From Octopus vulgaris (lineage: Eukaryota), in the NCBI GenBank assembly GCA_951406725.2, contig OX597831.1, positions 30,628,001 through 30,692,000 on the forward strand: a stretch of DNA of 64,000 bases, given 5' to 3'. Below are positions 6,337-61,112 of this stretch, in pieces. The stretch's first letter is position 1; every line of letters starts with the position of its first letter. A program made the position numbers and the translations under genes. Below the pieces are notes generated by a model. It ran no database searches. It was given only the letters and a program-made list of their open reading frames with translations, and was not told where the DNA came from.

Positions 6337-7828
6337 ATATACATATATATATATATATATATATATATATATATATATATATATATATATTCTCCAGACA
6401 TTTTGACACAAATATATATATTTTTTAAAAAAAAAAAAAAAAAAAAATTTCTTTAAAAATTTTAAAATTATGTCATTTTAAGGAAGGGAAAAAAATTTTT
6501 CCAATATTCTCCAGACATTTTGACACAAATATATATATTTTTTAACATTTAAGCCTTCTGTCGTTTTTTCACACTTTACTATTTTCTTATATATATATAT
6601 ATATATATATATATATATATATATATATATATATATATATGTACATATATACATACACATATATATAGGTGTTGTTTTCTGTATCCTTTAGGATGTCTTC
6701 TAAGCGTTACCCACCATTCTCGCCTTTTTGGCCTTAAGGATGTATTTTCCTCGTTTCTTATTTATTTTGTCTTTGTCCATTGTTGTAGATTACATTTTTT
6801 CCCTTTCGTATGTAAACCCTTTGTTGTTTTGTTTACCCTAGGCCCTTCATTCTCTGCAAGTTTCCTGGGCACCACCAGCATGGGAAGTTCTCATCCACCA
6901 CCGTTTGGCTCCCGCTGTTGGTTCGTTTACGTGCCCGTAACTTAGTAGTTCCCCAAAAGAAACCTATAGAGTAAGTATGCGACTGAAAAACTAACAGTAC
7001 AGTGGCCAAATAAACCCGTCTAGGTGTTGCTCCAGCATGACCGCAATCAAATGGCTGAAGCATGTAAAAATCGAAAAGAAAAAAAAAGCAGAAAAAACAA
7101 TAAAAACTATGGATTATTTAGTGGATCTTTCAAGTCGTTCGACGCAAATCAACATGGAGTATCACCAGAGTATTGAATTTCTGATCATTCTATAGTTGTC
7201 AAGATCTCATGGGTGATTATACGATAGATTTAATGTTAAAAGTTACATACAGATTGGACGGCTCGTTCGCAGGGGTTAAAACTAATGAATGATATTTCAT
7301 CAATAATGATGCGATGGTCGAAATAGCGTTAGCCACTTCAACCTATTTCTGTTATATTATTTAGTTTTGTGTTTTTCTAGATTTCTGAGTGCCATTGCCA
7401 CCAATGTTTATTTTCTCGTTTTTCAGTCAGCAGTTGATGACATCTAAACCAATACTGAATTGAAAGGCGATCCAGTTTGTTACAAACTAACCTTTTCACC
7501 ATACAAAACTACAAAACCACTATCATGAATCGAAGAAAGTAAGTTTATGGAGTATGAAAATAATACTTTACTTCATGATCACAATGAAACACACGCACGC
7601 ACGCATACACACACACAAACATACACATACACACAGATATAATATATATATATATATATATATATATATATATATATATATATATCAATATATATATATA
7701 TATACAGATATATATATATATATATATATATATATATATATATATATATATATATACACACACACACAGATATTTCTGCACGCATTTATTTTCTCTCCTT
7801 GTTTCTTTCTGTGTTTCTTTTCTGTGTA

Positions 7829-7866
7829 TCTTTCTGTTGAAGAGCGTAGGCTTGAAACGTAAAAGA
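7829..7866 (+). ncRNA. Minimal type I hammerhead-like motif (A6U core variant)
   Basis: tcttt CTGTTGAA gagc-gtag-gctt GAAA cgt A aaaga. Stem I tcttt/aaaga, stem II, palindromic stem III ACGT. Lies in an ~190-bp module (7775-7964) between AT-rich microsatellite tracts. Confidence 0.65.
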
Positions 7867-8051
7867 CTTGTTTTATTTATATTTCTGAGCGCCATACTAA
7901 TGCAATTGTTTGTTTGTATTCCACCTGCCTTCGTCTTTTGTTTATTTTCATAAAGCTTCCCGTTATATATATATATATATATATATACACACACACACAG
8001 ATATATATATATATATATATATACATACATATAAGAGGGATTTTGTATATA

Positions 8052-8466
8052 TACTGTTTTACTCTTTTACTTGTTTCAGTCATTTGATTGTGGCCATGCT
8101 GGAGCACCGCCTTTAGTCGAGCAAATCGACCCCAGGACTTATTCTTTCTAAGCCTAGTACTTATTCTATCTGGCTCTTTTACCGAACCGCTAAGTTACGG
8201 GGACGTAAACACACCAGCATCGGTTGTCAAGCGATGTTGGAGGACAAACACAGACACACAAATACAGACACACAAACATATATATATATACAAGCATATA
8301 TACGACGAGCTTCTTTCAGTTTCCATCTATCAAATCCACTCACAAGGCTTTGGTCGGCCCGAGGCTATAGTAGAAGACACTTGCCCAAGGTGCCACGCAG
8401 TGGGACTGAACCCGGAACCATGTGGTTGGTAAGCAAGCCACTTACCACACAGCCACTTCTACGCCT
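8052..8466 (-). mobile_element. SINE family B, full length
   Basis: Reverse complement of the 10838-11260 type, from head aggcgtagaagtggctgtgtggtaag to tail gaaacaagtaaaagagta. Confidence 0.88.
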
Positions 8467-10837
8467 ATATATATAGAAGCAAACTTTTTACCACGTAGCT
8501 ATGATGATGATATTTTTGTAGATGTGAAGCATTTGGCGGAAAATTTCTTTCGCGTTCGTTTCTTCATAATTAAGCAACAAATTATTTAGCTCATATAATA
8601 ATTTTAGTTTTTGGATTTTCGCAAATTTGTTTTTGAAATTACTTATTCAAATTAACCTTTTTAACTTCCTAAAATACATATTGAAATATAGAAAATATTA
8701 AATATTTTGTGAAAATAAACAGCTCATTTCTTAATTTTAGTTGTTTTTTTATTCTCTCATGCTCTGCTTTCAAATTAGAAACGTTACTAAATATTGATAG
8801 CATTTGTGAGTAAAAGAGAGTACTTAGAGTCGCCATGACTATGAAGCACAGCAGTTAAGTGTCGCTACCGATACATTCAATGTAACAAAGAATCTTCAAC
8901 TGAAATAAAATTACTGTTAAAATAGTGAGAGTTAAAAATAAGCGAGACAACTAATAGTAATGAAATATGTTAATGAAAACGTAAACGACAGATAAGGTTA
9001 ATGAAACAGTGACAGAACGGTCAAGGCTTAGAGGTGGCAACTCTAAGTTTGATTAAATGATATTACGGTTATGTCCTGGGGTTGATTTGTTCGGCTAAAG
9101 GTGGTGCTCCAGCATGGCCGCAGTCAAATGACCGAAACAATAAAGAAAATAATAAAAAATACATATATTATACATTATATATATTATACATAAATATATA
9201 GTTAGGTATGTATGTTTATTCATATATGTGAGCCTGAAGGTATATTTATACACACTTACACACACACACACACGCACACACACACACACACACACACACA
9301 CACACACACACACACACACACACACACGCACACACATATATATATATATATATACATAATTGCAGACATATGTATATAGATGTATCTATATGTCCATGGA
9401 TGCACAACTTGTATGCATTTATGTATATATGTACACGTCACAGCTTCCATTAAAATGTCTATTTACTCCAACTTATGCATTGGCTTTCGTAATCAATACG
9501 CTCTAGAAATGAAACATCCTGTATTCGTTTGGTAGTTTTAAGCAGCCATTTTTTTGCAGACAGGCGGTCATACCATTTTCTCATATAAATAGACATACAT
9601 ACATACACACACACACACTCATATATTATATATGTGTGTCTGTGTGTATATATATGTGTATGTGTATGTATATATATATATGTATATATATATAAATATA
9701 TATACATATGTATATATGTATATATGTATATATATATATATATGTATATATATACGTATATATATATGTATGTATATATATATATACATATATATATATT
9801 TATATATATATATATTATTCTCGAAACTATGTCACTATGGCATCTATCTACATTCAACCTCCGTTCTTCTGTTCACTAACAGACGGATATTTGGTTGCGA
9901 TATTACTTCAAGACAAAATAATTGGATTCTTTTTGATCATACAACGTTTCTAAGAACTTCTGAGATTACATTCTTATTTTGTGCAATCATTTTTCCCCTC
10001 GAATCTTTCTTTATTATTTAGTTTCCATGTCATCAGATATATTTCTTTCTTTTAATATTCTTCTTCTCTTGAGAATAACTTAATTTTTTTTATTCTGTTT
10101 CTATTTCCTCATATTTCCATTGTATATATATATATTTTTTATCTTGAACATTTCCTATACAAACGTTTATATTATATTATACAGTAACACGCACACACAC
10201 AAAGGTACATAGATATAGATATACACACATACGCACAGATATATATATATATATACCTATACATGTATGCATATATATATATATATATATATATATATAT
10301 ATATATATATATATATGGAGCACAATTACAAAGAAAAAAAAACATCTACAAATAATTCACTAAGCATATATTTAAGAAATATGTCCTAAAGTTTATTTAA
10401 TGAACATTTAGAGTTCTGTAATTCAGCAATTCATTTCATAGAATTCAGGTCTTCGAGACTCAAAATAGTTTCCCTTCTGGCTTCTTAGCAGAAAGTATTA
10501 AGGTTTCATATACTACTCACTGGAACATTATCGCATATATTGTTCTCTGACCTTGGTCCTTATAGAAATATCATACCATTGGTGATGTGGTTTGTGCATT
10601 ATTGGTATGAAGGTGTAACGTTATGCGTAACGTATTACTACCTGTAGATTCTTCAAGATATTTATGATGTAATGTTGAAGTTTTCAATATGGAATAATTG
10701 TAAAAGCCATATTTGTATGAATACATTTATGGTTTGCTTTTAATTAAGGTTACATGTATATATATCTGTGTGGTATATATATATATATATATATATATAT
10801 ATATATATATATATATATATATATATATCTGTGTGAT

Positions 10838-59488: not shown

Positions 59489-59870
59489 CTAGCAGTATCG
59501 CCCGGCGTTGCTCGGGTTTGTTTCGACCCTTTAGAATTGGCATTTTTGAAAAGTAAAAATTTGGCATTATGTAGCTTGTTTTTTTCTTTAAGTGAACATT
59601 TTTCTGGTTGAAAATGGCGACAAAGCAGTCAAAAAATCGTAAAAGATAGGGATTTTCATAGAAAAAAAAGCACCTTTTTGATGTAAATAATTTTTGGTGT
59701 TAACATGGTCCGATTTGAATTTTTTCTTCTACGGAAGTAAGAGCAAGCCTTCTTCTATCATACTCTCAATTTTGGTCAACTTGCGCTGCAGGATCTCTGA
59801 GGAGATAGTGTTAGTTGAGGGCTACCAAACCTGCCATACACAGACAACTTCAGCTTTATATATAGAGAGA
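59489..59870 (-). mobile_element. Complete non-autonomous Helitron (382 bp)
   Basis: Minus strand A|TCtctctatatataaagc ... cccgagcaacgccggg cgatactg CTAG|T: canonical TC start, 3' hairpin, CTAG end, AT target. Confidence 0.85.
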
Positions 59871-60743
59871 TTAATAAGGCTTAATAATTCGGCGCGGGCA
59901 TGACTGTGTAGCATTTCGTGAGTAAGAAATCATTTAGTTGAACAACAGGATGTTCATCCTCGGGACCAACTGAGAACCACCATAAATGTGAATTGGAAAA
60001 TCAGTCAAACCTTGGATTTAATACCAGCAGATACGTAACTGTATCCTTATGCGTCTGTGTTTGAATCCCGCTGAACCCAGCTTTGATATTCGACCTTCCA
60101 GAGTCGCTTAACTGAGGACCAATAAAATCGACAATATCGCTCCTCCTCAAAAATATGTTATTTTATGGGTATATTCGAAATCAACATAGATCAGGACAAA
60201 ATGACAGAATCGTTAGCACGCCGGGCAAGATACGTTCTGAAGTCAAAGTACGACGAGGTAGACTTTGCCTTTCATCCTTTCGGAGTCGATAGAATAAGTA
60301 CCAGGTGGGCACTGGAGTCGATGTAACCGACTTACGCAACCCACCCCAGGAACATGCTGACCTTCTACCAGAATTTGAATCCAGAATTATGTGTATAGAC
60401 GTGAAGACGGCATATATGTAGGCATATATCCGACGGGCTGTTTTCAGTGTCTTTCTACCAAATCCACTCACAACGCTTTGTTCGACCCGCAGCTATAATA
60501 AAAGATACTTGCCCTAGATACCACGCAGTAGGACTTCTTACCACACATCCATGTCTATGCCTATATATGTATATATTTATACATACATATATATATATAT
60601 ACATACATACATATATATATATATAATATATATATATATATATATAGTTAATCCAAACAAGAAAACACAGAAAAAAACACAGCAACGCGAGGACGTGGAA
60701 CAATTAAAGTATTATTTGACGCTCAGGAAAGAAGGGAAGGAGG

Positions 60744-60778
60744 GTTTAACGTTTCGAGCGGAGCTCTTCGTCGGAAAC
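60744..60778 (-). ncRNA. Minimal type I hammerhead motif (U4C variant)
   Basis: gttt CCGACGAA gagc-tcc-gctc GAAA cgt T aaac, in an ~210-bp module (60647-60858) between (AT)n tracts. Confidence 0.7.
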
Positions 60779-61068
60779 AAGGAGAAGGAAAGATCCCAAG
60801 AAGGGAAGACAGAGGAAAAAATATTTTTGCTGGTGGTGCTCAAGAGATCACATGTTGATATATATATTTATATATTTATATATATACATAATTATTAGCA
60901 ACAGAAGTAGTTTTGTTACCAAGTGACAACTTAATGTGGATTTATTGTTACAGCGTCGAATGCTGCGTTATTTACTTTGAGAGGACCTCTGATATGGAGT
61001 GTGGTGCATAAAAGTACACATATTTATATCTCTTGAAGAAAGCATCATCTGCAATCAGTGCCGGAAAT

Positions 61069-61112
61069 GTCTGATCACGTAATTTCAGCGTGCCTCGTCT
61101 CCTCAGTGGAAG
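61069..61112 (-). ncRNA. Degenerate hammerhead motif
   Basis: cca CTGAGGA gacgaggcacgct GAAA ttac-gtga TC. Homologous to 13331-13372 and 13625-13660; stem I poor. Confidence 0.45.

What the first reader, a model, noticed from the sequence alone, without database searches (positions are those of the whole stretch)
7775..61112. Dispersed set of mini-modules carrying hammerhead ribozymes, many inserted in (AT)n and several fold-back
Seen: about a dozen motifs of the form stemI-CUGANGA(N)-stemII-GAAA-palindromic stemIII-UH-stemI' at 7829, 13331, 13625, 18712, 18969, 19200/19259, 29718, 39684, 54342, 60744 and 61069. Stem sequences differ from module to module, yet pairing is kept. Many sit in 200-400 bp non-coding modules bounded by AT-rich microsatellites, and five modules contain long inverted repeats. 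Known: minimal type I hammerheads with palindromic stem III mark Penelope-like element pseudo-LTRs and retrozymes and cleave as dimers. Inference: many unrelated PLE families, or their non-autonomous derivatives, target (AT)n here and leave a ribozyme-bearing stub; the PLE RT/GIY-YIG remnants in the window are candidate relatives.
Basis: partly seen in the sequence, partly recalled or inferred. Interest (0 to 1): 0.85.

Follow-up and report, generated by a model that had tools for sequence, protein, structure and literature searches.

The report
Penelope leader stubs carrying hammerhead ribozymes
These short ribozyme-like inserts are real end-pieces of eight Penelope-type jumping-gene families, a known kind, but one has had an intron cut out exactly, so many are likely copies of the front end of the processed RNA, which bears on the open question of how these elements keep their introns.

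Summary
Observation confirmed. All 12 motifs are present. Nine cores lie in eight high-copy families, and longer genomic copies tie each family to a Penelope-like element (PLE) RT/GIY-YIG frame (one has an open 727-aa Hydra-type ORF; one link rests on a single copy). Three decayed cores belong to an old ~350-nt tandem, retrozyme-like family. (TA)n follows 177 of 225 mapped 3' ends (background 7%); five modules are fold-backs. Descriptor counts beat shuffles only when strict. All this is the known PLE pseudo-LTR pattern.

Extra result: the 39.7-kb module lacks, to the base, an 898-nt GT-AG intron present in long copies. 25 of 44 copies are spliced, in two subfamilies (single origin rejected, p=0.007), and none extends beyond a ~30-nt first exon. 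Short copies in four other families also stop at one 5' edge. Many modules are therefore likely cDNAs of the processed sense leader, not random truncations. No cleavage or expression was shown.

The parts
7775..7963 (+). pLTR stub of a Neptune-type PLE; minimal hammerhead, core at 7834 with U at position 6, predicted cut after 7861
13185..13480 (-). decayed monomer of old ~350-nt tandem (retrozyme-like) family; core at 13368
13493..13680 (.). second partial unit of the old family with an inverted, decayed hammerhead (core 13629, + strand)
18536..18802 (-). pLTR stub of a PLE with a 652-aa open RT+EN frame in locus L338; core at 18750 with C at position 9
18810..18876 (+). inverted arm of the 18.7-kb stub
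18887..19033 (-). pLTR stub with G3-C8 swapped core at 19011; long forms L424, L435 carry the ORF
19032..19130 (+). inverted arm of the 19.0-kb stub with the longer 3' tail
19166..19250 (-). inverted arm of the 19.2-kb stub (core 19233)
19250..19400 (+). pLTR stub = 5' UTR of a Hydra-type PLE with open 727-aa ORF (L466, L467); core 19263, predicted locked in the fold-back
29640..29775 (-). pLTR with textbook minimal hammerhead (core 29758)
29776..29875 (-). tRNA-Arg-like head followed by (AAT)n, inside the same element
29884..30053 (-). C-terminal end of the Poseidon-type GIY-YIG ORF, continuous with the tRNA-like head
39490..39655 (-). inverted arm of the 39.7-kb stub, with ~85-nt tail that continues into the long element
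39650..39892 (+). spliced pLTR stub: ~26-nt first exon joined at 39675/39676 to the hammerhead exon (core 39689); 898-nt GT-AG intron absent
54150..54441 (-). pLTR stub plus long 3' tail of a Hydra-like PLE; core 54422 with G5A in this copy
54437..54498 (+). inverted arm of the 54.3-kb stub
60649..60857 (-). pLTR stub of a young Neptune-type family; core 60774 with C at position 4
60900..61200 (-). decayed monomer of the old tandem family; core 61106

Best explanation
The modules are the hammerhead-bearing terminal repeats (pLTRs) of eight Penelope-like retrotransposon families, and many are likely short cDNA copies of the processed front end of the element's RNA rather than random breakage products. 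Inferred mechanism: a promoter inside the upstream pLTR starts the RNA 15-190 nt before the hammerhead; the element's GIY-YIG endonuclease nicks (TA)n; its reverse transcriptase starts inside the RNA at the pLTR/ORF boundary. Starting at the upstream pLTR copies only the leader (start site to boundary, spliced if there is an intron) and gives a 150-300-nt dead stub; starting at the downstream pLTR gives long copies that keep the unspliced intron and promoter. Fold-back priming gives the head-to-head arms. The hammerheads are predicted to cut weakly, as dimers through palindromic stem III. Shown: family membership, ORF links, (TA)n flanks, inversions, exact intron loss, 5'-end pile-ups. Inferred: start sites, internal initiation in these families, catalysis.
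For: ORF links for all eight families: L032/L147, L338, L142/L143, window 29884-30053 and L172, L335 (65), L334, L424/L435, L466/L467 (107). In L466/L467 the module is exactly the stretch in front of the 727-aa ORF in a 3.36-kb tandem. Intron: long copies L309, L324, L328 have a GT donor 898 nt before the AG acceptor; window and other short copies join the two exactly; the same GT..AG skip is in one contig of run X15. 25 spliced, 8 unspliced, 11 starting further down, of 44; in the 30 loci found with a 3'-only query 11/8/11; both states in both starred subfamilies, AU p=0.0066; first-exon match 8-31 nt in the 23 spliced copies printed. 5' edges in sets found without 5' sequence in the query: 7.8-kb family 17 of 30 end 67-85 nt before C3, none at 86-172, 5 long; 19.2-kb family 13 of 30 long, 10 of the other 17 end 13-16 nt before C3; 19.0-kb family 2 of 30 long, about 21-23 of 28 end 17-22 nt before C3 by eye, and 14 of 29 copies reaching the edge carry an extra G absent from the long form (p=2e-4 against 18%), as copying a cap would give. 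Literature: start site and 5' intron in the pLTR (PMC2377424, PMC8557442), intron end next to hammerhead helix I (PMC4209133), internal RT initiation and partial rescue by C3G/G8C (PMC11167929), (TA)n targeting and inverted copies (PMC8557442).
Against: Splicing was found in 1 of 6 families screened. No sharp edge in the 18.7- and 54.3-kb families and a blurred one at 60.7 kb. Edges could come from RT stalling or microhomology with (TA)n. The 19.0- and 19.2-kb edges lie at a YAG after a pyrimidine run, so they may be splice acceptors rather than start sites; no matching donor was found for 19.0. An early impression that all 19.2-kb copies start at one base (20 of 20) was a query bias, corrected. 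Some loci are two arms of one insertion. The 60.7-kb ORF link is one copy across 2.8 kb of (CA)-rich DNA. Pfam hits are below curated cut-offs, and the 727-aa ORF has none. Stems II and I are imperfect at 19263 and 39689; stem III of the 18.7-kb family gives no stable duplex.
Confidence: 0.7

Rival explanations
1. The modules are ordinary random 5' truncations of the downstream pLTR; pile-ups reflect RT stalling at structure or microhomology, and the 39.7-kb intron loss is a rare side event.
For: Heavy 5' truncation is standard for PLEs (PMC8557442, PMC4209133). Many junctions sit at TA/TG microhomologies. Two families show no edge.
Against: Hard upstream edges with empty gaps beyond them; spliced copies in two subfamilies, all ending inside the short first exon; extra G at the 19.0-kb edge.
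Confidence: 0.17
2. The short modules are self-propagating non-autonomous families (SINE- or retrozyme-like masters) that borrow PLE enzymes; the tRNA-headed 29.7-kb unit is a PLE-dependent SINE.
For: The 29.7-kb head best matches tRNA-Arg among 7 isotypes sampled; most head copies start at the head and carry linker and hammerhead. Thousands of near-identical short copies. The old family has tandem units and no ORF in 24 loci, which fits this reading for that family.
Against: The head is continuous with the ORF in the window copy, L172 and L156; long ORF-linked copies are common in unbiased sets (13 of 30; 8 of 30); spliced copies are not one clade.
Confidence: 0.12
3. The motifs are chance matches in AT-rich, repetitive DNA.
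For: A relaxed descriptor is close to shuffle level; Rfam shows no hammerhead in its top 150 rows.
Against: Strict descriptor 27 vs 0-5; each motif sits at the PLE position where hammerheads are known; compensatory G3-C8 core in 36 of 36 copies.
Confidence: 0.01

Closest known systems
Minimal type I hammerheads in pLTRs of metazoan PLEs (Cervera and de la Pena 2014, PMC4209133)
   Same: Short palindromic stem III, extra base after position 9, many unrelated families per genome, mostly solo copies, opposite-strand pairs.
   Different: Families fixed for C4, U6, C9 or G3-C8 cores; that paper names only a U3-A8 variant in the parts read. Lunse et al. 2016 may cover such variants; it could not be read.
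Hydra-clade PLEs (Craig et al. 2021, PMC8557442 section 11)
   Same: L466 ORF has RWK, DKT, CxCX5C, CxxC and CxH motifs, C-terminal endonuclease, hammerhead, (TA)n targets.
   Different: Unit 3.36 kb rather than under 3 kb; here with thousands of leader-sized stubs.
Drosophila virilis Penelope (PMC2377424, PMC4209133)
   Same: Short first exon, 5' intron inside the pLTR ending next to the hammerhead.
   Different: Intron 898 nt, not 75 nt; Penelope copies are described as retaining the intron, whereas most sampled copies of this family that span the site have lost it.
Poseidon_Ac of the anole (PMC11167929)
   Same: Internal RT start, two 3' ends (tail), AT-rich targets.
   Different: Leader-only, spliced products are not described in the two parts read.
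Animal non-LTR retrozymes (PMC7229834; bioRxiv 10.64898/2026.07.22.740005)
   Same: Old family: ~350-nt tandem units, type I hammerhead with longer stem I, no ORF; mussel units are 350-390 bp.
   Different: Copies here are decayed (70-85% alike) and often inverted; circular RNA not tested.
Schistosoma Sm-alpha/Sj-alpha elements (passage in PMC6765202) and octopus tRNA-Arg SINEs OR1/OR2 (recalled)
   Same: Pol III-type head in front of a hammerhead (29.7-kb family).
   Different: Here the head lies inside the 3' region of a coding PLE; identity with OR1/OR2 not tested.

Membership tests
EN+ Penelope-like elements | Single ORF with RT and C-terminal GIY-YIG upstream of the repeat | tested here: met
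   eight families, one on a single copy; Pfam scores below cut-offs
EN+ Penelope-like elements | Partial tandems forming pLTRs | tested here: met
   L466, L467 3.36-kb tandems; L435
EN+ Penelope-like elements | Inverted 5'-truncated copy and optional 3' tail | tested here: met
   no inversions seen in the two Neptune-type families
EN+ Penelope-like elements | RT groups with PLE clades in a tree | not tested
   clade labels rest on motifs; Hydra motifs from PMC8557442 section 11, Neptune and Poseidon labels partly recalled
EN+ Penelope-like elements | Intron retention in genomic copies | tested here: inconclusive
   retained in 8 long copies, lost in 25 short copies of the 39.7-kb family
Minimal type I hammerhead | CUGANGA/GAAA/UH core with stems I and II | tested here: met
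   fully at 29758 and in most 54.3-kb family copies; with one core change at 7834, 18750, 60774; C3G/G8C at 19011; weak stems at 19263, 39689
Minimal type I hammerhead | Self-complementary stem III | tested here: met
   six of seven stem III types form a self-duplex; the 18.7-kb one does not
Minimal type I hammerhead | Self-cleavage as dimer | not testable with these tools
   needs in vitro assay
Non-LTR retrozyme (old family) | Head-to-tail 170-400-nt repeats with type I hammerhead, no ORF | tested here: inconclusive
   direct repeats of period 290-370 in 8 of 24 loci, no PLE ORF in 24; copies decayed
Non-LTR retrozyme (old family) | Circular RNA monomers | not testable with these tools
   -
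tRNA-derived SINE (29.7-kb family) | tRNA-derived head | tested here: met
   best match tRNA-Arg, z 12-14, of 7 isotypes; ARAGORN and Rfam do not call it
tRNA-derived SINE (29.7-kb family) | Independent of the autonomous partner's body | tested here: not met
   head continuous with ORF in window, L172, L156

The most novel reading that the evidence does not exclude
PLEs make two products from one sense RNA: start-site-bounded, spliced leader cDNAs that litter the genome as dead hammerhead stubs (a strong-stop-like product that integrates), and long cDNAs that inherit promoter and intron from the unspliced downstream pLTR. This would explain intron retention without an antisense template, and stub 5' ends would map PLE promoters, caps, introns and possibly ribozyme cuts from DNA alone.
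Probability: 0.45. Interest if true: 0.75.

Novelty: new variant of a known kind. Interest (0 to 1): 0.55.

Why it matters
Why PLEs keep introns and which strand is the template are stated as open (PMC8557442; PMC3846280 proposes an antisense template and asks for tests). Exactly spliced genomic copies, three of them with head-to-head arms, show that sense, spliced RNA can be the template. A young family with an open 727-aa ORF and about 4,000 identical hammerhead cores, and families fixed for non-standard cores, give ready material to test whether PLE hammerheads cut at all. For annotation: these stubs are frequent (27 strict hits in 709 kb of repeat flanks) and should not be read as host regulatory RNAs.

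Tried and rejected
Rfam: no hammerhead in listed rows for the window, nothing for tRNA-head loci; ARAGORN 0 genes in 13 loci. Relaxed descriptor uninformative. Four genome searches with 3' or core parts returned nothing because their words are too common; not evidence of rarity. The L379 spacer is local host DNA, not element. Separate-SINE reading of the 29.7-kb unit dropped. 'All 19.2-kb copies start at one base' dropped. Introns in five other families: none found. 5' ends at the predicted cut: 4 of 90 copies start 1-2 nt after it (L248, L300, L319, L323) and 4 of 30 at 3-8 nt, against 1 of 120 inside the ribozyme; small, read by eye, after the fact, so only a hint. Expression: no RNA holder listed; runs guessed as RNA are contigs and cover both the 39.7-kb intron and the 19.2-kb ORF, which cannot show starts, strand or level. 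Homologue search gave 1,763 proteins, almost all unnamed. Lunse et al. 2016 not held. Paper searches for spliced PLE copies, octopus hammerheads, tRNA-headed PLE SINEs and OR1/OR2 (46) found no description; subscription papers, Repbase and supplements were not seen.
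Full report
SETTING. The window is G000:C18:30628001-30692000 of a 2.8-Gb genome in 227 contigs, rich in microsatellites. The label octopus is recalled and taken from earlier scan notes, not tested.

OBSERVATION. All 12 motifs are in the sequence. A strict type I descriptor finds 3 sites at up to one core mismatch against 2 hits in all 40 shuffles. 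A relaxed one finds 14 against 8.6+/-3.1 (6 of 100 shuffles reach 14) and misses 6 of the 12 cores. In 709,200 flank bases of 394 fetched loci a strict descriptor gives 27 hits against 0-5 in 20 shuffles; these flanks lie beside repeats and are not a random sample. Each module is a repeat family: first-look candidates 2042, 1013, 6, 44, 987, 337, 1386, 1588, 1481 (lower bounds). The 19.2-kb core has 3,992 exact matches, control 0. Fold-backs are present in five modules. (TA)n follows 177 of 225 mapped 3' ends, of 360 copies, against 7% background.

WHAT THEY ARE. Longer copies continue upstream, in the same sense, into PLE coding sequence for all eight young families. 7.8 kb: RT and GIY-YIG in L032/L147. 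18.7 kb: 652-aa open frame with inverted pLTR in L338, RVT_1 E 0.0011, GIY-YIG E 0.0021. 54.3 kb: L142, L143. 29.7 kb: ORF end in the window at 29884-30053 and in L172, L156. 39.7 kb: endonuclease 2.2 kb upstream in L335. 60.7 kb: GIY-YIG 2.8 kb upstream in L334 only. 19.0 kb: L424, L435. 19.2 kb: 727-aa ORFs in 3.36-kb tandems, L466 and L467, where the module is the stretch directly before the ORF; its motifs match the Hydra clade as defined in PMC8557442 section 11. The sites at 13368, 13629 and 61106 are one old family, 70-85% alike, with direct repeats of period 290-370 in 8 of 24 loci, inversions in 8 of 24 and no PLE frame; it resembles a decayed non-LTR retrozyme.

THE RIBOZYMES. Stems differ between families and keep pairing; six of seven stem III types self-pair. 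Non-standard cores are fixed: C at 4 in 25 of 26 copies found without the core in the query, no A at 6 in 28 of 28 and no A at 9 in 25 of 25 (by eye), G3-C8 in 36 of 36 (core in query). C3G/G8C partly restores cleavage in the anole element (PMC11167929). The 19263 core is predicted fully paired in its fold-back; the others are 0.38-0.79 unpaired. Activity is untested.

SPLICED STUBS. In the 39.7-kb family the long copies L309, L324 and L328 carry a GT donor 898 nt before an AG acceptor that lies about 14 nt before the core; the window copy joins the two sides exactly at 39675/39676. One contig of run X15 shows the same skip. Of 44 loci, 25 are spliced, 8 unspliced and 11 begin further downstream; two duplicate loci were dropped. 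A tree of the 33 copies with the ribozyme, built on the shared exon, has both states in both starred subfamilies and rejects one origin (AU p=0.0066). Spliced copies match only 8-31 nt of the first exon (23 of 25 printed). Three spliced copies, including the window's, have head-to-head arms. No intron was found in five other families.

5' EDGES. With queries lacking 5' sequence: 7.8 kb, 17 of 30 ends at 67-85 nt before C3, none at 86-172, 5 long; 19.2 kb, 13 long and 10 of the other 17 at 13-16 (some are two arms of one insertion); 19.0 kb, 2 long and about 21-23 of 28 at 17-22 (by eye), with an extra G in 14 of 29 edge-reaching copies after dropping 4 non-family rows and 2 long-form variants; 29.7 kb, ends gather at the start of a tRNA-Arg-like head. 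The edges sit at initiator-like YYANWYY motifs (consensus recalled), which at 19.0 and 19.2 kb also read as splice acceptors. The 18.7- and 54.3-kb families show no edge and 60.7 kb a broad one.

MECHANISM. Shown: PLE origin, (TA)n flanks, inversions, exact intron loss, pile-ups. Inferred: transcription starts in the upstream pLTR (as in PMC2377424), RT starts internally at the pLTR/ORF boundary (as in PMC11167929), so initiation at the upstream repeat copies only the processed leader, while initiation at the downstream repeat gives long copies that keep the intron. Confidence 0.7; rivals are random truncation with biased stops (0.17) and independent non-autonomous masters (0.12).

KNOWN AND NEW. 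Minimal hammerheads in many solo PLE ends, opposite-strand pairs, (TA)n targeting and inverted copies are described (PMC4209133, PMC8557442, PMC3846280). Earlier scan notes already report such stubs and the tRNA-headed family in this genome and 5' pile-ups in other genomes. Exactly spliced genomic PLE stubs were not found in paper searches or in scan look-ups.

PAPERS SEEN. PMC4209133 and PMC11167929: parts 1-2 of 4. bioRxiv 10.64898/2026.07.22.740005: part 1 of 5. PMC8557442: passages and section 11. PMC2377424, PMC3846280, PMC7229834, PMC6765202, PMC6962438: passages. Lunse et al. 2016: title only, in a reference list; it may already describe the variant cores. OR1/OR2 SINEs: recalled. No supplements were read; those of PMC8557442 and PMC4209133 may list cephalopod families.

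VERDICT. Real, mostly a known kind; the spliced, edge-bounded stubs are a new variant that makes an open mechanistic question testable. Interest 0.55.

Noticed in passing
window 45021-45121 (-): U6 snRNA match, 86 bits, with a 3-nt gap in the conserved part; gene or pseudogene.
   Followed up: no
window 18536-19400: Three different PLE families inserted within 900 nt; similar nesting of different families in one (TA)n run in L078, L089, L094, L338, L339.
   Followed up: partly
window 27898-28116 (-) and 41575-42188 (-): Old PLE RT and endonuclease remnants, 26-57% identical to the linked families' proteins.
   Followed up: partly
window 2021-2418 and 15965-16337: Head-to-tail dimers of a ~185-nt dispersed repeat, probably a SINE.
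   Followed up: no
window 16413-16673 (+), inverted repeat 15575-15783/16554-16762: C-terminal fragment of a retrotransposon-like protein after (AAT)n with a 209-nt, 96% inverted copy 770 nt away.
   Followed up: no
   Followed up: no
L147:661-1938 (+): 426-aa C2H2 zinc-finger array ORF next to two PLE insertions.
   Followed up: no
L152 and L153 (C17, 79.66 Mb and 68.44 Mb): Near-identical multi-kilobase stretches in opposite orientation: segmental duplication or assembly duplicate.
   Followed up: no
flanks of fetched loci: At least four further hammerhead families not present in the window, including one with a U3-A8 core.
   Followed up: no
L248, L300, L319, L323: Copies of three families that begin 1-2 nt after the predicted ribozyme cut; possible trace of cleavage in vivo.
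   Followed up: partly
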